From IMG/VR virus record IMGVR_UViG_2778261446_000008, positions 1 through 30,565 of that record: a DNA stretch of 30,565 nucleotides; one strand, given 5' to 3'. The notes below the pieces were generated by a model that did not search any database, was not told where the DNA came from, and saw only the letters and a program-made list of their open reading frames with translations. The DNA comes from a virus (lineage: Duplodnaviria; Heunggongvirae; Uroviricota; Caudoviricetes). The position numbers and the translations under genes were made by a program. Below are positions 683 through 29,868 of this stretch, in pieces. How positions within the stretch are numbered: position 1 is the stretch's first letter; every line of letters begins with the position of its first letter.

Positions 683-909
683 TGGCAGATGCAATGGATC
701 TCGTACAGCAGCGCGTTGAAGAAGAACGCCAGCGCTATATCCGTGCTGCCCGTGCCAAAACACCGGGCGTGTCTCGTGTGCTTTGTATTGAATGTGAAGC
801 GCCAATTCCGCCAGCACGACGCCGCGCCATTCCTGGAGTGCAGCTTTGCATTACCTGTCAGGAAATCGCAGAGCTGAAAGGCAAACATTACAACGGAGGT
901 GTTGTATGA
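682..909 (+). CDS. TraR/DksA-family C4 zinc-finger protein
   Basis: 75-aa ORF with two CxxC pairs (CIEC ... CITC) in the spacing typical of TraR/DksA C4 zinc fingers; the P2/186 early region carries such a gene upstream of A. Its stop overlaps the Dam start (ATGA at 906-909). Confidence 0.7.
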   Translation: MADAMDLVQQRVEEERQRYIRAARAKTPGVSRVLCIECEAPIPPARRRAIPGVQLCITCQEIAELKGKHYNGGVV

Positions 910-1763
910 GCACCATCCTGAAATGGGCGGGAAATAAAACCGCCATTATGTCCGAACTGAAAAAACATCTTCCTGCTGGCCCGCGACTGGTTGAACCTTT
1001 CGCGGGTTCCTGTGCTGTGATGATGGAGACGGATTACCCCAGCTATCTTGTTGCGGATATTAATCCTGATTTAATCAACCTCTATAAAAAGATTGTCGCT
1101 GATTGCGAAGCGTTTATATCTCGTGCCAGAGCTTTATTTGAGGAAGCAAACAGGGATGTGGCTTATTACAACATAAGGCAGGAGTTTAATTACTCCACTG
1201 AAATTACTGATTTCATGAAAGCGGTATATTTCCTGTATCTCAATCGTCATGGTTACCGTGGGTTATGTCGCTATAACAAGAGCGGGCATTTCAACATTCC
1301 GTACGGTAATTATAAAAATCCGTATTTCCCTGAAAAAGAAATTCGCGCATTTGCAGAGAAAGCCCAGCGGGCAACGTTTATCTGCGCAAGCTTTGATGAA
1401 ACGCTGGCGATGCTGCAGGTGGGGGATGTGGTGTATTGCGATCCGCCGTATGACGGTACGTTTTCCGGCTATCACACTGATGGTTTCACTGAAGATGACC
1501 AGTATCACCTGGCATCCGTTCTTGAACATCGGTCATCAGAAGGACATCCGGTCATTGTTTCTAACAGTGACACATCCCTGATCCGTTCGCTGTATCGCAA
1601 TTTTACTCACCACTACATCAAGGCAAAACGCAGCATCGGTGTGGCAGCTGGTGAGAGTAAATCTGCAACAGAAATCATCGCTGTTTCCGGGCCGCGCTGC
1701 TGGGTGGGATTTGATCCTTCGCGTGGCGTGGATAGTTCAGCCGTGTACGGAGTACGTGCATGA
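906..1763 (+). CDS. DNA adenine methyltransferase (Dam-like, N6-adenine MTase)
   Basis: N-terminus [11 protein letters not shown]... resembles the Dam AdoMet-binding region, and the catalytic DPPY motif is present (VYCDPPYDG). The track ORF begins at 846, but ATG 906 overlapping the upstream stop is the likely start. Its stop overlaps the start of A (ATGA at 1760-1763). Confidence 0.85.
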
Positions 1764-4174
1764 GTCATGCCGATATGAACAACTGCTGCGGCTTTAACGA
1801 GGCTGCCGCAGCGTTCTCATGGAACAGCCCGAAAAAGGCCATTAACCCTTATCTGGACCCGGCGGAAGTTGCGCCGGTTTCTGCGCTTTCAAACCTGATC
1901 ACTCTGTACGCTGCCGATAACGAGCAGGAACAACTGCGCCGCGAGGCACTGAGTGATCAGGTCTGGGAGCGTTATTTTTTTAATGAATCACGTGATCCTG
2001 TCCAGCGCGAAATGGAGCAGGATAAGCTCATTAGCCGGGCAAAGCTGGCGCATGAGCAGCAGCGTTTTAATCCGGATATGGTCATTCTGGCGGACGTCAA
2101 CGCCCAGCCTTCCCATATCAGCAAGCCGCTGATGCAACGTATTGAATACTTTAGCAGCCTGGGCAGGCCAAAGGCTTATTCCCGCTATTTACGTGAGACG
2201 ATTAAGCCATGTCTGGAACGACTGGAGCATGTACGCGACAGCCAGCTATCTGCATCTTTTCGTTTTATGGCAAGCCATGAAGGGCTGGACGGCCTGCTTA
2301 TCCTGCCTGAAATGAGTCAGGATCAGGTGAAGCGCCTGTCTACCCTTGTCGCTGCGCATATGAGCATGTGCCTTGATGCCGCTTGTGGTGATTTGTATGC
2401 CACCGATGACGTTAAGCCAGAAGAAATCCGCAAAACATGGGAAAAGGTGGCAGCGGAAACCCTGCGTCTGGATGTTATTCCGCCTGCGTTTGAGCAACTC
2501 CGTCGGAAAAGAAACCGCCGTAAACCCGTGCCCTATGAACTCATTCCGGGTTCGCTTGCGCGTATGTTGTGTGCCGACTGGTGGTATCGGAAATTATGGA
2601 AGATGCGTTGCGAATGGCGGGAAGAGCAGTTGCGTGCTGTCTGCCTGGTCAGCAAAAAAGCATCTCCCTATGTCAGCTATGAAGCCGTGATGCATAAACG
2701 TGAGCAGCGCCGCAAGTCACTGGAGTTTTTCCGTTCTCATGAACTGGTGAACGAAGAGGGCGACACGCTGGATATGGAAGACGTGGTAAACGCCAGCAGC
2801 AGCAACCCGGCGCACCGCCGCAATGAGATGATGGCCTGTGTTAAAGGTCTGGAGCTTATCGCGGAAATGCGTGGTGATTGCGCCGTTTTCTACACCATTA
2901 CCTGTCCGTCACGTTTCCATTCCACGCTCAATAACGGCAGACCAAACCCAACCTGGACAAATGCGACGGTAAGACAAAGCAGCGATTATCTGGTCGGCAT
3001 GTTTGCTGCATTTCGTAAGGCGATGCACAAAGCCGGGTTGCGCTGGTATGGCGTGCGGGTGGCTGAGCCGCATCATGACGGTACGGTTCACTGGCACCTG
3101 TTGTGTTTCATGCGCAAAAAAGACCGCCGTGCCATTACTGCATTGTTGCGTAAGTTTGCCATCCGTGAAGACCGCGAGGAACTGGGTAATAACACTGGTC
3201 CACGCTTTAAATCTGAGCTGATAAACCCGCGCAAAGGAACACCGACAAGCTACATCGCGAAATACATTAGTAAGAACATTGACGGGCGTGGTCTGGCTGG
3301 CGAGATCAGCAAGGAAACGGGTAAATCCCTGCGTGATAACGCTGAATACGTTAATGCCTGGGCGTCTCTGCATCGTGTTCAGCAATTCCGCTTCTTTGGT
3401 ATTCCGGGGCGTCAGGCTTACCGTGAACTGCGATTGCTGGCTGGTCAGGCGGCAAGGCAACAGGGCGACAAAAAAGCAGGTGCGCCGGTACTGGATAACC
3501 CGCGCCTTGATGCCATCCTGGCTGCTGCTGATGCTGGTTGTTTTGCCACTTACATCATGAAGCAGGGTGGCGTACTGGTTCCCCGCAAATATCACCTCAT
3601 CAGAACTGCTTATGAAATTAACGAAGAGCCGACCGCCTATGGCGATCACGGCATTCGTATTTATGGCATCTGGTCACCCATTGCAGAGGGCAAGATCTGC
3701 ACTCATGCAGTGAAGTGGAAAATGGTCCGTAAAGCCGTTGACGTTCAGGAGGCGGTAGCCGACCAGGGCGCTTGCGCCCCTTGGACTCGTGGCAATAACT
3801 GTCCCCTTGCTGAAAATTTGAACCAACAAGGGAAAGACAAATCAGCTGATGGGGATACCAGAACGGATATCACCCGCATGGATGACAAGGAGTTGCACGA
3901 TTACCTGCACAGTATGAGCAAAAAAGAACGCCGGGAACTGGCAGCAAGGTTACACCTGGTTAAACCGAAACGGCGTAAAGACTACAAACAGCGAATTACA
4001 GACCATCAGCGACAGCAGCTCGTGTATGAGCTGAAGTCCAGAGGGTTTGATGGTAGCGAGAAAGAGGTCGATTTACTCCTTCGCGGCGGCAGTATTCCGT
4101 CAGGAGCAGGCCTGCGTATCTTCTATCGGAACCAGCGTTTGCAGGAAGATGATAAGTGGCGAAACCTGTATTAA
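1760..4174 (+). CDS. A: replication initiation protein A (rolling-circle replication endonuclease, P2 gpA-like)
   Basis: 804-aa ORF at the position of P2 gene A; contains the active-site tyrosine motif [12 protein letters not shown] typical of P2 A / phiX A-family initiators. Confidence 0.85.
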
Positions 4175-4327: not shown

Positions 4328-4516
4328 ATGCAGGACTATTTTTTGGAGTCTTTGAAGCTCCAGCGCATTGATTTTTTTCTTAAGCTTGTAGCGGCCAGTG
4401 AGTGTAGTGATGAAGAGAAGGGACTGGCTCTGCAGTGGGTTTCTGAATTGACTGATGAACTCATGGCAAAAATCAGAAGCCACGAATACAACCGCTCAAT
4501 GGATGTCATCAGCTGA
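4328..4516 (+). CDS. hypothetical protein; candidate N-terminal part of a Tum-like SOS-inducible antirepressor
   Basis: 62-aa ORF with a strong RBS (aggagg, 4318-4323) directly downstream of the LexA box; its 3' end overlaps the open frame of the DinI-like gene (4455-4516) in a +1 relationship. Confidence 0.5.
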   Translation: MQDYFLESLKLQRIDFFLKLVAASECSDEEKGLALQWVSELTDELMAKIRSHEYNRSMDVIS

Positions 4517-4526
4517 GGTGACTTTT

Positions 4527-4760
4527 ATGCGCATTGAAATAATGATCGATAAAGAGCAGAAGATTAGCCAGTCTACCCTGGACGCCCTTGAATCCGAGCT
4601 TTACCGTAATCTGCGCCCCCTGTATCCCAAAACGGTAATTCGTATCCGCAAAGGTAGCTCTAACGGTGTGGAACTGACCGGACTGCAACTGGACGAAGAA
4701 AGGAAGCAAGTGATGAAAATTATGCAGAAGGTGTGGGAAGACGACAGCTGGCTGCATTAA
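4527..4760 (+). CDS. DinI-like protein (DinI family, SOS-regulated)
   Basis: 77-aa product from ATG 4527 (RBS gaggtg 4515-4520): MRIEIMIDKEQKIS...VWEDDSWLH aligns by eye with E. coli DinI (MRIEVTIAK...TWESADDWF). The track ORF starts at 4455, but the DinI homology begins at 4527. Confidence 0.75.
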   Translation: MRIEIMIDKEQKISQSTLDALESELYRNLRPLYPKTVIRIRKGSSNGVELTGLQLDEERKQVMKIMQKVWEDDSWLH

Positions 4761-4983: not shown

Positions 4984-5085
4984 CGCGCGCTAACTCATAA
5001 ATCCTAGATTATTAGTGGATTTATCTCATTGAAATGTGCACTATTCCCAGCATTGAGTTGTACCAGATGTCTTTATGGAGGGACT

Positions 5086-6852
5086 GTGGCTTTTGTAACT
5101 GATATTCGGCTTGAAGATAATGCTATTGCTGCACCTGCGACAGCACAGGTTATGGCTCAGAGGCTAGGATCTGTATTACGTAAGAGATATGAAGAATTCA
5201 TCCATAAAAGAGAGTGTGCACCAGGCCAAGCAGACTATGATGTAAAAATGGCTAGCAGGGCTTTAGCCGCATTCACTATGTATCAGTTAGGATGTGTGGA
5301 TGATAAGTATGCAGGGGAGTCTGTATGTGATAGTAGTGAAGATGGTGGTATAGATGGAATAGCAATCAACCATAACGAAAAAATCGTTGTTGTTGTTCAA
5401 TCAAAATTTCACCAATCGGGAAACGGCACTTGGACAAGAGCCGATTTTATGTGTTTTAAGGATGCTTGTGAGAAGCTACAAAGTGAAAGATACGAATTAT
5501 TTGATTCCATATTGCAAAATAAAAGCGGGGAAATAAGTGCGGCTTTAAGTAGTTTTGAATACAAGTTCATCTTTGCGATGGCGCATACAGGTAAAAAAGG
5601 TGCTGCAGAGGAAATATTAAATGATATGCGGGAATGGCAATATCAATTAAACGCTGCAGCTTTTACACCTGAGGATGAGCCTAAAGAGAACTGGGGATTT
5701 CAGGTTCATTTAATATCCTCTGAAGATATGATGCATTGGTTACAGAATGGCTCTCGAAATCAAATTGATCTTAACAGGGTTGAAATTGAGCGTTTTGGAT
5801 TTTTGAATGAACCATATCAAGCTTTTTACGGGGCTATTAGTGGTGATCAAGTTGCAGAATGGTGGGAAGAGCATGGTGCTCGATTATTTACAAAAAACAT
5901 AAGGAATATGCTTGGTAAAACAGAAGTGAATGAGGAAATAAAAAAGACAGCTATAGATAATCCTGATATGTTTTGGTTTTATAATAATGGGATTACTGTA
6001 CTGGTTAAGGAAGTTGTTCCTCATAGACGAAACGCAGCTCCTAATATAGAGAGAGGGATTTTTGATTTTCGTGATGTAAGTGTCATTAATGGTGCACAAA
6101 CAGTCAGTAGTATTGGCGCATGTAAAGATGCGCTTGGTGAAAACATATATAGACTCAAAGTGCCAGCTAGATTCATTGTTATAGATGATGATACTGATAA
6201 TTTAACTGCAAATGCAATTACAAAAGCTAACAATTTCCAAAATAGAGTATTGGGAAGAGATTTTGCATCGCAGCAGGCAGATCAACATAGATTGGCAAGG
6301 GAGTTAGTGCTTGAAGGATATCAATATCAGTTACTAAGAACAGATGAAGATCATTCACAGACAAATACGAAAGTCATTGACTTGGATGAGGCGCTCAATG
6401 CACTCGCATGTTTAAGTAAAAATAATACGGTTGTATCGACACTAAAATCAAATCGCGGTAGGTTTTTTGAAAATTTTGAAGGCTCTCTATATAAAACTAT
6501 TTTCAATCCAAGATTAAGTGGTTTAAAACTTATCAATACTGTTCTACATTTTAGAGTTATAGATAAGTTGATCGGTAAAACATTACTATCAGTAGATAAA
6601 ACGACCCATAGTCGCAAGCATTTAATTATTACGCATGGTAATAGATACTATGCGTCTGTACTATTGAGCAACGTTTCTGGGATACATAATAGCTCAGAAA
6701 TTCTTGTTCCAGATGAAAAAAATCTTTCCGAAGAATTAAGTGCATTAATTCAACGTGCTGAAGAGTACATTGAAGATAATTACCCGAATGCCTATCCGGC
6801 AAGATTTTTTGCAAATCCAACGAAAATACAAGAGTTATACGATAATGTTTAA
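5086..6852 (+). CDS. AIPR-like putative abortive-infection protein with an N-terminal PD-(D/E)xK-like nuclease motif (candidate anti-phage cargo gene)
   Basis: Long ORF (track 5029..6852 from a TTG, 607 codons); plausible starts are GTG 5086 (RBS ggaggg 5077-5082) or ATG 5152. Markedly AT-rich relative to flanking phage DNA. Motifs: SEDGGIDGIAI...VVVQSKF (D...QxK nuclease-like) and a central FWFYNNGITVL / INGAQT block that I recall as AIPR-like. Lies between cos and Q and ends at a strong terminator. Confidence 0.6.
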   Translation: MAFVTDIRLEDNAIAAPATAQVMAQRLGSVLRKRYEEFIHKRECAPGQADYDVKMASRALAAFTMYQLGCVDDKYAGESVCDSSEDGGIDGIAINHNEKIVVVVQSKFHQSGNGTWTRADFMCFKDACEKLQSERYELFDSILQNKSGEISAALSSFEYKFIFAMAHTGKKGAAEEILNDMREWQYQLNAAAFTPEDEPKENWGFQVHLISSEDMMHWLQNGSRNQIDLNRVEIERFGFLNEPYQAFYGAISGDQVAEWWEEHGARLFTKNIRNMLGKTEVNEEIKKTAIDNPDMFWFYNNGITVLVKEVVPHRRNAAPNIERGIFDFRDVSVINGAQTVSSIGACKDALGENIYRLKVPARFIVIDDDTDNLTANAITKANNFQNRVLGRDFASQQADQHRLARELVLEGYQYQLLRTDEDHSQTNTKVIDLDEALNALACLSKNNTVVSTLKSNRGRFFENFEGSLYKTIFNPRLSGLKLINTVLHFRVIDKLIGKTLLSVDKTTHSRKHLIITHGNRYYASVLLSNVSGIHNSSEILVPDEKNLSEELSALIQRAEEYIEDNYPNAYPARFFANPTKIQELYDNV

Positions 6853-6883: not shown

Positions 6884-7912
6884 TTAGAAATGGTATTCTT
6901 GGAATTCAATAACACCTTCTTTTATGAAATTGTTTATTTCTTGTAATCTTTTTTGCAATGGCAATAATTCATTACGTACAAATACTTTACTCGCCTTCTC
7001 TACATCTCCAAAGCCCCCGACATTATTAGGCATTATCCCCATCATTTGTGGCGGCACACGATGCGCCGCCATCATGTCGTCCCGGCTCACGTTCTTGATA
7101 TTCAGGAACTCATCCTTCGCCGCCACTTCTGACAACGGGATAATCTGAAGCCCGTCCTTTTTACCGTTAGGCGAGTACATAAACAGGTTACGGAAGTTAC
7201 CAGGACCTTTGGCGCTTTTCATCGCATTGCGGAGGTTGTTCACATCCTCCTGGTTCTGCGCTGCATCGGTCATGTACATGATGAAGCCTGCATGACTGCC
7301 GTTAATGTAATACTTGCGGCGGAACAGCGTGGCGGACTCGTTGAGCAAAGCGGATGGGATGGCAGAAAGATAGCCGGGCAGGCCGTAGATCTCCTGATTA
7401 ATATCCGGTTCCATCAGATGAAAAATGCTGCCTTTCGTGAACTGATACGGCTGGGTTGTCATACCGTATTGCACAAACCAGTAGGTATCCAGGTCTAACC
7501 CGCGTCGGGTGTATTTTGCCAGAGCAGGCTCAAGGGCGATAACTTCACCGAAGCGGTTCGTGCGTTTCTCCAGGTAGGCGTTACCAAATACCAGATAGTC
7601 CTGCACAAAACGTGAAAAATCCTGCTGGCTGAGCAGCGGGTGAGGGATGTAGGTACTGGTCAGAATGTTGCATTTCACTGCAATCGGTGAACTGTGATGC
7701 ACGGCGGCGCGGAAGGTGCGCGCCAGCCCGTCAAAGCTTACTGGCGGCTCATACCAGCGATCTGTCTGTACGCATTCCACATAGTCCAGCAGTTCGCGGC
7801 GGTCCAGAACAGGAACGGGATCACCGAAGCTGAATGCTTCGGCTGAAGTCTGGCTTTTATGCTGGATCTGGTTCGTCGACGCAGCGCGGTTCTTCTTACT
7901 CTTTCCCATCAA
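6884..7912 (-). CDS. Q: portal protein (P2 gpQ-like)
   Basis: 342-aa ORF immediately downstream of the large terminase gene on the same strand with an ATGA start/stop overlap (7909-7912); P2 synteny and size. Confidence 0.85.
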   Translation of the reverse strand: MMGKSKKNRAASTNQIQHKSQTSAEAFSFGDPVPVLDRRELLDYVECVQTDRWYEPPVSFDGLARTFRAAVHHSSPIAVKCNILTSTYIPHPLLSQQDFSRFVQDYLVFGNAYLEKRTNRFGEVIALEPALAKYTRRGLDLDTYWFVQYGMTTQPYQFTKGSIFHLMEPDINQEIYGLPGYLSAIPSALLNESATLFRRKYYINGSHAGFIMYMTDAAQNQEDVNNLRNAMKSAKGPGNFRNLFMYSPNGKKDGLQIIPLSEVAAKDEFLNIKNVSRDDMMAAHRVPPQMMGIMPNNVGGFGDVEKASKVFVRNELLPLQKRLQEINNFIKEGVIEFQEYHF

Positions 7913-20984: not shown

Positions 20985-21039
20985 TGCAGAGATAACGGCT
21001 AACTGGCATCATCTCCGGTTTTTATTCAGGGGGATGATC

Positions 21040-21606
21040 ATGCTTATTGGCTATGTACGCGTGTCAACAAATGACCAGAACACCGATTTGCAACGCAATG
21101 CACTGAACTGTGCGGGATGTGAGCGGATTTTTGAGGATAAAATCAGTGGCACCAAGTCCGACAGACCGGGGCTGAAAAAGCTGCTCAGGACACTATCGGC
21201 AGGAGACACGCTGGTTGTCTGGAAGCTGGACAGACTGGGGCGCAGTATGCGGCATCTTGTTACGCTGATAGAAGAGCTGCGCCAGCGTGGCGTGAATTTC
21301 CGAAGCCTGACTGACAGTATTGATACCAGCACCCCAATGGGCCGTTTCTTTTTTCATGTCATGGGTGCCCTGGCTGAAATGGAACGCGAACTGATAGTTG
21401 AACGTACCAGGGCGGGGCTGGCTGCAGCTCGTGCTAAAGGCAGAGTAGGTGGACGCCGTCCTAAGTTGACCAGCGAACAGTGGGCACAGATTGGGCGTTT
21501 ACTCGAGGCCGGAGAATCAAGACAGCGTATTGCACTGATTTTTGATGTAGGCGTTTCTACCATTTATCGAAAATTTCCGGCAAATAAGAACAATAAATCT
21601 CCCTGA
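21040..21606 (+). CDS. site-specific DNA invertase, serine recombinase (Hin/Gin/Cin/Pin family)
   Basis: N-terminus MLIGYVRVSTNDQNTDLQ with catalytic serine context (YVRVST), resolvase core, and C-terminal HTH (GVSTIYRKF); 188 aa from ATG 21040. Confidence 0.9.
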   Translation: MLIGYVRVSTNDQNTDLQRNALNCAGCERIFEDKISGTKSDRPGLKKLLRTLSAGDTLVVWKLDRLGRSMRHLVTLIEELRQRGVNFRSLTDSIDTSTPMGRFFFHVMGALAEMERELIVERTRAGLAAARAKGRVGGRRPKLTSEQWAQIGRLLEAGESRQRIALIFDVGVSTIYRKFPANKNNKSP

Positions 21607-28654: not shown

Positions 28655-28873
28655 ATGATGAATTGTCCAAAGTGTGGTCATGCGGCACACACAAGGAGCA
28701 GTTTTCAAGTAACTGAAAGCACCAAAGAGCGTTACTGCCAGTGCCAAAATATTAACTGCGGGAGTACTTTTGTTACCCATGAAACAGTGGTCCGGTTTAT
28801 TGTGACACCCGCACTGATTGCTACTGCTCCTCCACATCCATTGCCAGGTGGTCAGGGGCATATGAATTTTTGA
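28655..28873 (+). CDS. ogr: Ogr/Delta-family zinc-finger late transcription activator
   Basis: MMNCPKCGHAAHTRSS...KERYCQCQNINCGSTFVTHETV matches the P2 Ogr zinc-finger pattern (CPxC...H...KERYHQCQNVNCSATF); 72 aa; RBS gtaggga upstream. Confidence 0.9.
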   Translation: MMNCPKCGHAAHTRSSFQVTESTKERYCQCQNINCGSTFVTHETVVRFIVTPALIATAPPHPLPGGQGHMNF

Positions 28874-28880
28874 GAAAGAG

Positions 28881-28904
28881 AACCTGCTACGGCAGGTTTT
28901 TATT
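28881..28904. terminator. bidirectional terminator between ogr and the WYL-BRCT gene
   Basis: aacctgc-tacg-gcaggtt hairpin followed by TTTTATT on the + strand; located between convergent stops (28873 and 28900). Confidence 0.65.
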
Positions 28905-29382
28905 CATCTGGGATCTCACCCGTTTCAAGAAAATGTATAAAGCCAGGCTCATCTATGATGATTGTGCCTTTCATCCTGGCTGCCGATACTTTTGATGGGC
29001 CTGCATTGTAACCGCAACAGAGCATCTGAAGGCTTTGGGTTACAGAGGTTCTTACCGTTAATCCTTGTTCATTCGCCTTATCAACCAATCTTTCTTTATC
29101 TGCTTTCTTAAATCCGGTGAAACACACATCGAATGTATTTTTTTTCGGACCAGACTGCTTGGTGAGATGTGAGTAGTTTTCGGGGAGGAATGACGCGCAC
29201 TCCTGAATGGCTTGTTCTGGTGAATCGTACTGTTTAAGAATGCGGTCTTTTCGGAAGGTTTTTATTCGATCGGTGTTCTTACAAATGCCCTGTATATGAT
29301 TTTCGCTATAACTGATGCTCTGTATAGAGTGAACACCGATACGACCATTTGCATTGATGTAAACAAAGTGAAGTTCTTCCAT
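28900..29382 (-). CDS. small WYL-domain plus BRCT-domain protein (cargo gene between ogr and the ssrA junction)
   Basis: 160 aa; N-terminal half has a WYL-like signature (FVY...G...R.FRKDRI); C-terminal half has a BRCT-like pattern (NTFDVCFTGF...LTVRTSVT...CCGYNAGPSKVSAARMKGTIIIDEPGFIHFLETG). RBS agagg 6 nt before the ATG; AT-rich composition. Confidence 0.6.
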   Translation of the reverse strand: MEELHFVYINANGRIGVHSIQSISYSENHIQGICKNTDRIKTFRKDRILKQYDSPEQAIQECASFLPENYSHLTKQSGPKKNTFDVCFTGFKKADKERLVDKANEQGLTVRTSVTQSLQMLCCGYNAGPSKVSAARMKGTIIIDEPGFIHFLETGEIPDE

Positions 29383-29462
29383 GTGAAACCTCTTTGCATG
29401 ATTTCAAGATGGCGACAGGCAAGATAGACGCAAAAGTCTGTCGCCATTTTGCCGCCACTACT

Positions 29463-29496
29463 AAAGAAAAAGGGGCTACGCTTTCACGTAACCCCT
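29463..29496 (-). terminator. rho-independent terminator downstream of ssrA
   Basis: On the minus strand: hairpin aggggUUacg / cgUagcccc (one G-U wobble) followed by a U-rich tract (UUUUUCUUU), immediately 3' of the tmRNA CCA end. Confidence 0.6.
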
Positions 29497-29505
29497 TGAT
29501 TTATT

Positions 29506-29868
29506 TGGTGGAGCTGGCGGGAGTTGAACCCGCGTCCGAAATTCCTACATCCTCGGTACTACATGCTTAGTCAGTCTTTACATTCGCTTGCCAGCTGCGG
29601 ACGGACACGCCACTAACAAACTAGCCTGATTAAGTTTTAACGCTTCAACCCCAGGCAGGGCTTCCACGCGATCTCTTTTGGGTTTGACCTCTCTTGATCC
29701 CCGTCCTAAGAGCGGAGGCTAGGGAGAGAGGGCTCTAAGCAGGTTATTAAGCTGCTAAAGCGTAGTTTTCGTCGTTTGCGACTATTTTTTGCGGCTTTTT
29801 ACGAGGCCAACCGCCCCTCGGCATGCACCTTGGGTTTCGCAAATCCCGTCGAATCCAGAATCAGCCCC
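29506..29868 (-). ncRNA. ssrA: tmRNA (SsrA, transfer-messenger RNA)
   Basis: The reverse complement reads GGGGCTGATTCTGGATTCGACGGGATTTGCGAAACCCAAGGTGCATGCC...GCAAACGACGAAAACTACGCTTTAGCAGCTTAA...GGTTCAACTCCCGCCAGCTCCACCA, i.e. the enterobacterial tmRNA including the tag-peptide reading frame (ANDENYALAA) and the tRNA-like 3' end. Confidence 0.95.

What the first reader, a model, noticed from the sequence alone, without database searches (positions are those of the whole stretch)
28900..29382. WYL-BRCT fusion protein encoded between ogr and the ssrA junction
Seen in sequence: an AT-rich, independently transcribed 160-aa gene on the strand opposite to ogr, with its own RBS and a bidirectional terminator downstream, occupying the extreme right end of the prophage next to the ssrA 3' end. 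The N-terminal half carries a WYL-like signature (aromatic beta strands and R.FRKDRI); the C-terminal half looks like a BRCT domain (VCFTGF...GTIIIDEPGF). Established knowledge: WYL domains are ligand- or nucleic-acid-sensing modules that regulate defence loci (BREX BrxR, CRISPR-associated) and DNA-damage responses; BRCT domains bind phosphopeptides or DNA ends. Inference: this could be a small sensor or regulator, or a single-protein defence or anti-defence factor carried as prophage cargo. I do not recall this architecture as a described system.
Basis: partly seen in the sequence, partly recalled or inferred. Interest (0 to 1): 0.7.

Follow-up and report, generated by a model that had tools for sequence, protein, structure and literature searches.

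The report
Prophage WYL-BRCT protein, function unknown
A small, uncharacterised phage protein joins a single-stranded-DNA-sensing domain (WYL) to a phosphate/DNA-end-binding domain (BRCT). P2-like prophages carry it as optional cargo downstream of their immunity genes, so it is a reasonable but untested candidate for a new phage-exclusion or DNA-damage-sensing factor.

Summary
Window 28900-29382 (-) is a real 160-aa gene under purifying selection, more AT-rich than the prophage (41.8% vs 52.8% GC), with a good RBS. It sits between ogr and the phage-supplied 3' end of ssrA.

It is phage cargo, not a host remnant. It lies in the deposited genomes of phages Cartapus and MLG42. About 15% of E. coli genomes with a closely related P2-like prophage carry it.

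The main new result is its position. In 13 P2-like phage contexts from five bacterial orders it lies downstream of, and co-oriented with, the immunity repressor, often as the next gene. The cI-int interval is a documented defence hotspot.

Function is untested. My best guess is a lysogen-expressed, effector-less binder of ssDNA/5'-phosphate junctions that excludes other phages. The architecture was listed in 2014 but never studied. "Independently transcribed" is not supported.

The parts
28900..29382 (-). Complete CDS (160 aa plus TAA stop) of the WYL-BRCT protein
   Evidence: ORF list. phrog_2561 full-length match, 2.2e-77. 122 homologues. dN 0.23-0.31 with saturated dS.
29221..29382 (-). WYL domain, residues 1-54: five-stranded Sm/SH3-like barrel with the conserved motif T42-F43-R44-K45-D46-R47
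29131..29220 (-). Linker, residues 55-84: two short helices (55-62, 67-73) and a lower-confidence basic stretch
   Evidence: AF2 secondary structure. pLDDT falls to about 69 for residues 71-80. This is the most variable part of the family alignment, in length and sequence.
28903..29130 (-). Single BRCT domain, residues 85-160, with phosphate-pocket residues T89, G90, K96, K131 and a conserved C-terminal LETGEIP tail
29389..29395 (-). Ribosome-binding site AAAGAGG, 6 nt upstream of the ATG
   Evidence: Read directly from the sequence. A purine-rich AAAG/AAAA tract sits at the aligned position in the Citrobacter and Pantoea leaders, but the GAGG core is not conserved.
28881..28898 (.). Hairpin between the convergent ogr and WYL-BRCT genes; likely a shared terminator
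   Evidence: Terminator-like site on the - strand. The + strand tail TTTTATTC was read.
29410..29457 (.). attP arm: tandem direct repeat TGGCGGCAAAATGGCGACA (29439-29457, -) plus an inverted third copy TGGCGACA (29410-29417, +). Inferred integrase arm-type binding sites lying in the gene's leader.
   Evidence: Conserved in Citrobacter and in a Pantoea prophage integrated elsewhere. Present on both sides of the core in Cartapus attP, same orientation.
29470..29497 (-). Phage-supplied ssrA terminator (12-bp stem plus T-run), directly upstream of the WYL-BRCT gene on the same strand
   Evidence: Terminator scan. Identical in Cartapus attP.
29506..29550 (-). att core region: the ssrA 3' end shared between this attR and the free-phage attP
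   Evidence: Alignment with Cartapus attP is near-identical up to about 29550 and then diverges. tmRNA gene at 29506-29868.
28655..28873 (+). ogr (late-gene activator), the convergent neighbour
   Evidence: PF04606 Ogr_Delta, 1.5e-20. Annotated as such in Cartapus and RefSeq.

Best explanation
What it is (shown, confidence above 0.9):
- An accessory gene of P2-like temperate phages (Peduoviridae).
- It encodes a 160-aa non-catalytic protein: an N-terminal WYL domain, a two-helix linker, and one C-terminal BRCT of the LigA/RFC1 sequence type.
- It has no DNA-binding HTH and no enzyme domain.

Where it sits (shown):
- It always lies on the lysogeny side of the phage genome, downstream of and co-oriented with the immunity repressor.
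- It is either the next gene after CI (or CI plus one gene), before int, or lies just beyond int and attP.
- In this E. coli lineage attP falls between int and the gene. Integration into ssrA therefore carries the gene to the far end of the prophage. There it lies 88 nt downstream of the phage-supplied ssrA terminator, on the ssrA strand.

How it most likely works (inferred, about 0.35-0.4):
- It is made in lysogens, by co-transcription with CI in most lineages. Here it would be made by terminator read-through from ssrA or from an unrecognised promoter.
- It acts stoichiometrically as a DNA-structure binder.
- The WYL domain would hold single-stranded DNA, as in DriD, PafBC and CapW.
- The BRCT phosphate pocket would hold a 5'-phosphate at a nick, gap or recessed or cohesive end, as reported for the isolated RFC1 BRCT.
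- By capping such junctions on incoming or replicating foreign phage DNA it would block their ligation, circularisation or processing.
- That would make it an effector-less superinfection-exclusion or defence factor carried in a known prophage defence hotspot.
For: Domains:
- WYL fold and WYL HMM hits in homologues.
- BRCT HMM, profile and fold.
- T89, G90 and K131 invariant, K96 at least 90% conserved. They align with the T-G and G-x-S-K motifs of LigA and RFC1, the S/T-G...K phosphate pocket described in PMC10386641.
- WYL domains of CapW, DriD and PafBC bind ssDNA (PMC11662680; abstracts).
- The isolated RFC1 BRCT binds recessed 5'-P DNA with Kd about 10 nM (PMC9293004).

Accessory phage cargo:
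- Present in the deposited genomes of phages Cartapus and MLG42.
- 170 of 5426 E. coli genomes carry it, against 1102 with a near-identical gpD.
- Relatives integrated at ybjL have ogr directly at attR.
- GC is 11 points below the prophage.

Lysogeny-side position:
- CI then the gene in Y. ruckeri, Xenorhabdus, Pectobacterium, two metagenomic prophages, Mannheimia PHL101 and Vibrio PV94.
- Repressor, one gene, then the gene in Serratia and Burkholderia.
- cI, int, attP, then the gene in Cartapus and MLG42.

Known hotspots:
- The cI-int interval of K139-like P2 relatives is a described defence hotspot (PMC9122126).
- int-att and int-primase are minor P2 defence hotspots (PMC13586616).

No conserved partner gene appears across the contexts, so it looks like a single-gene module.
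Against: - No experiment exists and no paper on its function was found.
- No full-length match to any PADLOC defence model. The PDC-S48 match covers only the BRCT.
- The protein is not basic: pI 6.95 overall and 5.3 for the BRCT half. That is weak support for general DNA binding, so the pocket could bind a phosphoprotein or a nucleotide instead.
- The arginines that flank the WYL motif and contact ssDNA in CapW (R164, R168) align with E27 and Q31 here. Only the FRxDR arginines are kept.
- WYL regulators build the ssDNA crevice together with a WCX domain, which is absent here.
- An effector-less defence mechanism is unusual.
- No promoter was found for the gene in this lineage, and a strong terminator lies upstream. 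Expression in this lysogen is therefore assumed, not shown.
Confidence: 0.38

Rival explanations
1. A DNA-damage or induction sensor serving the phage's own lysis-lysogeny decision. The WYL domain senses ssDNA produced by DNA damage, as in DriD, PafBC and CapW. The BRCT then engages a phage or host protein such as CI, Int, Apl/Cox or a repair factor. That would tune derepression, excision or lysogenisation independently of, or in addition to, the SOS/Tum route.
For: - The gene is the next one after the CI repressor, often with only 2-35 nt between them and an RBS overlapping the end of CI.
- Otherwise it hugs attP or int.
- Every characterised WYL sensor responds to ssDNA or DNA damage.
- BRCT domains are classic protein-protein adaptors of damage responses (PMC10386641).
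- The acidic BRCT half (pI 5.3) fits protein or ligand binding better than DNA binding.
Against: - The gene is dispensable. Most closely related E. coli P2-like prophages lack it.
- In this lineage integration separates it from cI and int, so stoichiometric co-expression with CI is not conserved.
- The phage already carries a DinI/Tum-like gene at 4455-4760, which by analogy with phage 186 Tum (from memory) could supply an SOS-linked induction route.
- No partner has been identified.
Confidence: 0.18
2. An anti-defence factor. It would act as a small sponge or decoy that sequesters ssDNA fragments or a phosphorylated nucleotide signal, or that competes with host BRCT proteins such as LigA. Host ssDNA-sensing regulators (CapW, BrxR) or signalling defences would then not be triggered when the phage infects or is induced.
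For: - It is small and non-catalytic, with two ligand-binding domains, like known phage sponge proteins (from memory: Tad1/2, Acb2).
- CapW-controlled CBASS restricts prophage induction through ssDNA sensing (PMC11662680), so a competing WYL domain could in principle blunt that signal.
- The conserved phosphate pocket would also suit a nucleotide ligand.
Against: - Its position in the lysogeny operon, co-transcribed with CI, is typical of lysogenic-conversion or exclusion genes rather than early lytic anti-defence genes.
- No similarity to any known anti-defence protein was seen in PHROG, Pfam or PDB searches.
- This is pure inference.
Confidence: 0.1
3. A DNA ligase fragment or exonuclease, as annotated in the phage records: an enzyme of phage DNA metabolism.
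For: - Database labels: 'DNA ligase' (NC_049342, PHL101 and phrog_2561) and 'putative exonuclease' (Cartapus).
- NCBIfam hits to LigA and the DEDDh exonuclease PRK06063.
Against: - All those hits cover only the C-terminal 70-80 residues, the BRCT, of 650-aa ligase or 331-aa exonuclease models. Scores are 11-26 bits against cut-offs of 369-1051.
- The 160-aa protein has no adenylation, OB, Zn, HhH or DEDDh domain.
- Its other half is a WYL barrel.
Confidence: 0.01

Closest known systems
wHTH-WYL-WCX regulators (CapW, BrxR, DriD, PafBC)
   Different: - There is no wHTH DNA-binding domain and no WCX dimerisation/crevice domain, so it cannot work as a transcription factor of that type.
- The output domain is a BRCT.
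- The WYL triplet is N-H-I.
- The CapW ssDNA-contacting arginines that flank the triplet are not conserved.
DNA-binding single BRCT domains of bacterial NAD+-ligase LigA and eukaryotic RFC1 (p140)
   Same: They are the closest sequence relatives of residues 85-155 (family profile E 4e-5). The T-G and G-x-S-K phosphate-pocket motifs are kept, with K96 in the place of RFC1 R423 (numbering re-derived from the aligned sequence; the role of these residues is from memory of Kobayashi 2006/2010). The isolated RFC1 BRCT binds recessed 5'-P DNA, and the LigA BRCT aids nick sealing.
   Different: - Here the BRCT is not attached to a ligase or clamp-loader body.
- It is acidic (pI 5.3).
- It carries a family-specific C-terminal LETGEIP tail.
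- DNA binding is untested.
Lysogeny-operon exclusion genes: lambda rexAB (after cI), K139 glo (between cI and int), P2 old/tin/fun
   Same: Optional prophage genes expressed with, or next to, the immunity repressor that exclude other phages (from memory). The cI-int interval of K139-like P2 relatives is a documented defence hotspot (PMC9122126). Vibrio phage PV94 carries a WYL-BRCT homologue in the interval between its HTH repressor and int.
   Different: There is no sequence or fold relationship to any of them. No exclusion phenotype has been shown. Those proteins are membrane proteins, nucleases or ATPases, not WYL-BRCT.
PADLOC candidate system PDC-S48
   Same: It is the best PADLOC hit (1.8e-7), and it is a single-gene candidate with a C-terminal BRCT.
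   Different: The match covers only profile positions 335-406 of 411, the BRCT. The remaining 330 positions have no counterpart. Fused homologues behave the same way. It is not a member.
phrog_2561 / NCBI 'BRCT domain-containing protein'
   Same: Full-length membership (2.2e-77, positions 2-167 of 167). RefSeq gives the same label in several E. coli genomes.
   Different: These are catalogue entries without a function. The PHROG label 'DNA ligase' is an over-annotation based on the BRCT.

Membership tests
WYL domain (PF13280) | Five-stranded Sm/SH3-like beta-barrel fold | tested here: met
WYL domain (PF13280) | Profile match at Pfam's gathering score, on this protein itself | tested here: not met
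   No PF13280 hit even at E<=10 for the window protein. At family level, 12 of 51 homologues hit at E<=1 (best 1.5e-5). Fused homologues P0139, P0157, P0195 and P0211 score 22.8-28.5 bits against a cut-off of 21.8.
WYL domain (PF13280) | Conserved F-R-x-D-R-(I/V) motif on the last strands | tested here: met
   F43-R44-K45-D46-R47-I48. T42 is invariant and F43 and R44 are at least 90% conserved. The motif aligns with NFRLDRV of PafBC.
WYL domain (PF13280) | W-Y-L triplet and flanking ssDNA-contacting arginines (RWHVR in CapW/BrxR) | tested here: not met
   By the PafBC alignment the triplet position reads N28-H29-I30, with E27 and Q31 flanking it (CapW residues from PMC11662680). The alignment is short (E=2 for the whole-sequence match; 10 for the aligned stretch), so this is indicative only.
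WYL domain (PF13280) | Binds ssDNA or another nucleic-acid ligand | not testable with these tools
   Needs EMSA, fluorescence polarisation or a co-crystal structure.
BRCT domain (PF00533) | beta-alpha-beta-beta-alpha-beta-alpha fold of about 80-90 residues | tested here: met
BRCT domain (PF00533) | Profile match at Pfam's gathering score | tested here: inconclusive
   19.5 bits against a cut-off of 21.3 for this protein. 45 of 51 homologues hit at E<=1, best 2.1e-6. Several homologues carry a precomputed PF00533.
BRCT domain (PF00533) | Phosphate-binding pocket: S/T-G after beta1 and a Lys at the start of alpha2 | tested here: met
   T89, G90 and K131 are invariant in 51 sequences. They align to the T-G of LigA and to the K of GQSK in RFC1. 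Pocket definition from PMC10386641.
NAD+-dependent DNA ligase LigA (the 'DNA ligase' annotation) | Adenylation (NTase), OB, Zn-finger and HhH domains | tested here: not met
   NCBIfam LigA models match only their last 70-100 positions at 11-20 bits, against cut-offs of 369-1051. The protein is 160 aa and its other half is a WYL barrel.
DEDDh exonuclease PRK06063 (the 'exonuclease' annotation) | DnaQ-like DEDDh exonuclease domain | tested here: not met
   The match is to profile positions 229-307 of 331 only, at 26 bits against a cut-off of 389. There is no RNase_T or DNA_pol3_exo hit in Pfam.
wHTH-WYL-WCX transcription regulators (BrxR/CapW/DriD/PafBC) | N-terminal winged HTH and C-terminal WCX domain around the WYL | tested here: not met
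   The WYL domain starts at residue 3. No HTH family was hit. The C-terminal part is a BRCT.
PADLOC PDC-S48 candidate defence protein | Full-length match to the 411-position model | tested here: not met
   Only positions 335-406 are matched.
Prophage lysogeny-module accessory (defence-hotspot) cargo | Variable presence at a fixed position next to cI, int or att in otherwise syntenic phages | tested here: met
   - 170 against 1102 E. coli genomes.
- Absent from relatives integrated at ybjL.
- Positions after CI or after attP in 13 phage contexts.
- Hotspots described in PMC9122126 and PMC13586616.
Prophage lysogeny-module accessory (defence-hotspot) cargo | Protects the lysogen against other phages | not testable with these tools
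   Needs plaque assays with and without the gene.

The most novel reading that the evidence does not exclude
WYL-BRCT would be a new class of stand-alone nucleic-acid-structure sensor with no enzymatic or transcriptional output. It is made together with the prophage immunity repressor across Peduoviridae. Under this reading it recognises ssDNA/5'-phosphate junctions such as gaps, nicks or cohesive ends. It would then either physically cap invading phage DNA (an effector-less exclusion mechanism) or serve as an SOS-independent damage sensor feeding into prophage induction. In this ssrA-integrating lineage the attP site lies between the lysogeny operon and the gene. Integration therefore rewires its transcription, placing it downstream of the highly expressed tmRNA gene.
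Probability: 0.3. Interest if true: 0.7.

Novelty: new variant of a known kind. Interest (0 to 1): 0.5.

Why it matters
WYL domains have recently emerged as the ssDNA sensors that switch on bacterial DNA-damage responses and phage-defence operons. In every studied case they act through an attached HTH or an enzyme. Here the only partner is a BRCT, the archetypal eukaryotic damage-response adaptor, which in bacteria has mostly been studied as part of LigA.

The family is large: 887 representatives of 50%-identity clusters at E<=1e-10. It is carried in the immunity operon of P2-like phages from Enterobacterales, Vibrionales, Pasteurellales and Burkholderiales, and it is mis-annotated as ligase or exonuclease.

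Showing what it binds and whether it excludes phages would do several things:
- It would add a new single-gene prophage function, or a new induction sensor.
- It would give a first function for a stand-alone bacterial or phage BRCT.
- It would correct a widespread annotation error.

If the gene has no phenotype, it remains an ordinary moron of unknown function.

Tried and rejected
1. Host-gene remnant next to ssrA: rejected.
   - The gene and its leader, including the ssrA 3' end and terminator, are part of Cartapus attP.
   - MLG42 carries the gene just beyond int, as in Cartapus.

2. Sigma-54 promoter: rejected.
   - TGGCGGCAAAATGGCG in the leader resembles TGGCAC-N5-TTGC.
   - However, the same tandem repeat occurs on both arms of Cartapus attP, in the same orientation. 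It also lies just downstream of the gene, before an integrase-family gene, in Y. ruckeri. It therefore reads as an integrase arm-type site.

3. Sigma-70 promoter for the gene: none found by the scan or by eye.

4. Membership of PADLOC PDC-S48, LigA or the DEDDh exonuclease family: rejected, because only the BRCT matches.

5. Functional clues from fused homologues: none.
   - The extra 110-330 aa give no Pfam hits and only unknown-function PHROGs 36782, 31886 and 6785.
   - By eye, some have TM segments, a TerB-like stretch, or extra WYL or BRCT repeats.

6. Sequence search of the N-domain profile against PDB: nothing significant, with PafBC at only E=2. The fold search was needed.

7. dN/dS could not be given as a ratio because dS is saturated.

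8. The AlphaFold-database fold search (afdb50) was unavailable. The BFVD search returned mainly ligase BRCTs and a few small phage BRCT or WYL proteins.

9. Five literature searches found no functional study of a WYL-BRCT or phage BRCT protein.

10. The IMG/VR scan added numbers (189 contigs) but little diversity. All of the best 80 loci have the ogr-convergent arrangement.
Full report
**1. The observation**

- A Shine-Dalgarno AAAGAGG lies 6 nt upstream, at 29389-29395.
- The gene has 41.8% GC against 52.8% for the prophage part of the window (profile).
- It converges on ogr (28655-28873; PF04606 1.5e-20). A GC-rich hairpin at 28881-28898 lies between them, with T-rich tracts on both strands.
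- ARAGORN finds the tmRNA gene at 29506-29868 on the minus strand, and smpB follows. This is therefore the last prophage gene before the ssrA 3' end.
- The ORF is a real gene. There are 122 homologues in the word-indexed search. The exhaustive profile search found 2673 cluster representatives at E<=1e-3 and 887 at E<=1e-10.
- Against the Citrobacter and Pantoea orthologues, dN is 0.23-0.31 while synonymous sites are saturated.

**2. Domains**

*The BRCT half.*
- On its own the protein gives only a sub-threshold Pfam BRCT hit: 19.5 bits against a cut-off of 21.3, residues 84-145.
- Family evidence is much stronger. In an alignment of 51 full-length homologues (A1), 45 hit BRCT.
- A profile of A1 finds the BRCT domains of Thermus LigA (3.8e-5) and human and yeast RFC1 (4e-5 to 8e-5) in the PDB.
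- AlphaFold2 on A1 gives a confident model (mean pLDDT 92). Its pTM is only 0.53, meaning two well-folded domains with an undefined mutual orientation.

*The WYL half.*
- 12 of the 51 homologues hit WYL (PF13280) at E<=1.
- Fused homologues from the exhaustive search pass the WYL gathering score (P0139, P0157, P0195, P0211). They also hit PADLOC's CRISPR-associated WYL models.

There is no HTH and no catalytic domain.

*Conserved residues.*
- Invariant or near-invariant in the family are Y8, T42, F43 and R44 in the WYL domain, and T89, G90, F91, K96, L121, G124, N126-P129 and K131 in the BRCT.
- T89-G90 and K131 correspond to the S/T-G and Lys of the BRCT phosphate pocket (definition in PMC10386641). 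They align with the T-G of LigA and the GQSK of RFC1.
- K96 aligns with the RFC1 arginine in IERDE. This is R423 by my count from the aligned sequence. Its role in 5'-phosphate binding is from my memory of Kobayashi et al. 2006/2010, which I could not open.
- In the WYL half the FRxDR motif is kept. The W-Y-L triplet reads N-H-I, and the arginines that flank it and touch ssDNA in CapW are not conserved.
- The protein is not basic: pI 6.95 overall, 8.9 for the WYL part and 5.3 for the BRCT part.

**3. The database annotations are wrong**

Phage records call the gene 'DNA ligase' (500465-1, PHL101 and phrog_2561) or 'putative exonuclease' (Cartapus). Those labels derive from the BRCT alone.
- NCBIfam LigA and DEDDh-exonuclease models match only their C-terminal 70-100 positions, at 11-26 bits against cut-offs of 369-1051.
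- The best PADLOC hit, candidate PDC-S48, is likewise BRCT-only, covering positions 335-406 of 411.

**4. It is phage cargo, and where it sits**

*Phage-borne, not a host remnant.*
- The gene is present at 97-99% nucleotide identity in the deposited genomes of phage Cartapus. A 73%-identical protein is encoded by Yersinia phage MLG42.
- Aligning this window with Cartapus attP shows near-identity from inside the gene to about 29550.
- The phage therefore supplies the last ~45 nt of ssrA, the ssrA terminator (29470-29497) and the gene's whole leader.

*The leader is an attP arm.*
- It contains a tandem repeat TGGCGGCAAAATGGCGACA (29439-29457) and an inverted third copy (29410-29417).
- The same tandem repeat lies on the other side of the core in Cartapus attP, in the same orientation. 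It is also conserved in a Pantoea prophage integrated at a different site.
- I read these repeats as integrase arm-type sites, and I dropped my initial idea of a sigma-54 promoter.
- No sigma-70-like promoter is detectable on the gene's strand.
- In the lysogen the gene lies 88 nt downstream of a strong terminator of the highly transcribed ssrA, on the same strand.

*It is optional.*
- 1102 of 5426 complete E. coli genomes carry a P2-like prophage with a near-identical gpD, but only 170 carry this gene.
- Four sampled relatives integrated next to ybjL have ogr directly at attR, with nothing in between.
- IMG/VR holds 189 viral contigs with a relative. All 80 best ones (59-100% identity) have ogr convergent downstream, and 46 have smpB upstream.

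*Position relative to the immunity repressor.* I looked at 15 different contexts, and 13 are P2-like phages. In all 10 where the repressor lay in the stretch examined, the gene is co-oriented with it and downstream of it.
- It is the very next gene after the 186-type CI, separated by 2-35 nt, in Yersinia ruckeri, Xenorhabdus bovienii, Pectobacterium, two metagenomic prophages and Mannheimia phage PHL101. In PHL101 the annotated RBS overlaps the end of CI.
- In Vibrio phage PV94 it is the next gene after an HTH-domain protein at the repressor position.
- It follows the repressor plus one gene in Serratia ficaria and Burkholderia phages.
- In Cartapus and MLG42 the order is cI, int, (a RES-like gene in Cartapus), attP, then the gene.
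- The Citrobacter contexts repeat the arrangement seen in this window. In Pantoea the gene also lies at the prophage end, separated from ogr by a YcaO gene and a 68-aa ORF.
- The two non-P2 contexts are a marine integrative island next to an Mrr-like nuclease and a methylase, and a short uninformative contig.

Two arrangements therefore exist, but they are one topology on the circular phage genome. The gene sits at the distal end of the lysogeny transcription unit. The lineages differ in whether int and attP come before or after it.

**5. What is known about these positions**

- Rousset et al. 2022 describe the cI-int interval of K139-like P2 relatives as a defence hotspot (PMC9122126).
- A 2026 survey lists int-att (3% of the P2 systems) and int-primase (8%) as minor P2 defence hotspots (PMC13586616). 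Neither paper mentions WYL-BRCT or the ogr-att interval.
- Makarova et al. 2014 list BRCT among the domains found fused to WYL (PMC4012209). That is the only mention of the architecture I found.
- Five further searches found no functional work.

**6. Mechanism**

*Shown:*
- A non-catalytic protein with two ligand-binding domains.
- Optional phage cargo.
- A position on the lysogeny side of the genome.
- A conserved phosphate pocket and FRxDR motif.

*Inferred:*
- It is made in lysogens.
- The WYL domain binds ssDNA, as in CapW, DriD and PafBC.
- The BRCT binds a 5'-phosphate at a nick, gap or recessed end, as the isolated RFC1 BRCT does with Kd about 10 nM, and as the LigA BRCT assists nick sealing.

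A protein holding both features of an ss/ds junction could cap cohesive ends, or replication and recombination intermediates, of incoming phage DNA. That would block their processing. Functionally it would resemble lambda rexAB or K139 glo, which are exclusion genes expressed with the repressor (from memory).

I put this at about 0.35-0.4. The arguments against it are these:
- The BRCT half is acidic.
- The ssDNA-binding residues are only partly conserved, and there is no WCX domain.
- There is no effector.
- It matches no known defence model.
- Expression in this lineage is unproven.

*Rivals:*
- A DNA-damage sensor feeding into the phage's own induction or integration decisions (about 0.18). 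Its place right after CI favours this. Its dispensability disfavours it, as does a DinI/Tum-like gene at 4455-4760.
- An anti-defence sponge or decoy (about 0.1).
- The annotated enzyme functions (about 0.01, effectively refuted).
- The remaining probability is 'something else'.

**7. Novelty and score**

- The architecture and the family are catalogued, but they are functionally blank and mis-annotated.
- The consistent placement behind the immunity repressor across Peduoviridae from five bacterial orders appears not to have been reported.
- I rate this a new variant of a known kind: a WYL sensor with an unprecedented, non-enzymatic, non-HTH partner, sitting in a known cargo slot.
- Interest is 0.5. 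It is a well-defined and cheap-to-test candidate. It is not yet a surprise, because no phenotype or ligand is known.

Noticed in passing
window 5029-6852 (+): A 607-aa ORF with an AIPR domain (PF10592, abortive-infection phage-resistance protein, 7.3e-35). It sits between the replication gene gpA (1760-4174) and the portal gene Q (6884-7912, -). That interval is the classic P2 old/tin defence hotspot, so this prophage probably carries a second, recognisable defence cargo.
   Followed up: partly
window 4455-4760 (+): A DinI-family ORF (PF06183, 1.2e-22), annotated as a DinI-like RecA-filament binder in Cartapus. By analogy with phage 186 Tum (from memory) it may be an SOS-controlled antirepressor. 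That bears on the 'induction sensor' rival.
   Followed up: no
window 29410-29457; L002 12811-12858 and 13046-13064: Tandem TGGCGRCA repeats spaced 11 bp apart flank the ssrA-derived core of attP on both arms, and they lie in the leader of the WYL-BRCT gene. They superficially resemble a sigma-54 -24/-12 element. Integrase bound here could influence the gene's transcription.
   Followed up: partly
window 29444-29500: The ssrA terminator region downstream of tmRNA matches at 94-97% in about 630 other E. coli genomes that lack this prophage's ogr and WYL-BRCT gene. The same terminator sequence therefore follows ssrA natively or is supplied by other ssrA-integrating elements.
   Followed up: no
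L002 13071-14276 (Cartapus; beyond the left end of this window): In the free phage a 401-aa 'RES protein, NAD+ binding domain' gene lies between int and attP. That is the other flank of the attachment site, so both sides of attP carry optional cargo. The int-att interval is a reported minor P2 defence hotspot.
   Followed up: no
L003 8843-10345 (Pantoea sp. At-9b prophage): In Pantoea a YcaO-domain gene (417 aa) and a 68-aa ORF lie between ogr and the WYL-BRCT gene. The ogr-att interval can therefore accumulate further cargo.
   Followed up: no
proteins P0154, P0180, P0183, P0170, P0122 (homologues, not in the window): The WYL-BRCT module is fused, at either end, to an unknown domain of 180-240 aa (phrog_36782 / phrog_31886; a recurring W-T-Q-G...F..GD motif by eye). 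Other homologues add TM segments, a TerB-like stretch, a second WYL, or up to five BRCT repeats. None has a recognisable enzyme domain.
   Followed up: partly
NC_049342.1 (L001 11484-20024): The RefSeq record 'Escherichia phage 500465-1' includes about 9 kb of host chromosome (smpB, ratA, bamE, recN, nadK, grpE, ffh) annotated as phage genes. It is a mis-delimited prophage.
   Followed up: no
window 846-1763 (+) and 21034-21606 (+): A Dam-type N6-adenine methyltransferase (PF02086, 2e-77). Also, by synteny with Cartapus, a Gin-like DNA invertase next to duplicated tail-fibre and assembly genes, which would be a host-range switching shufflon. Both are ordinary for this phage group.
   Followed up: no
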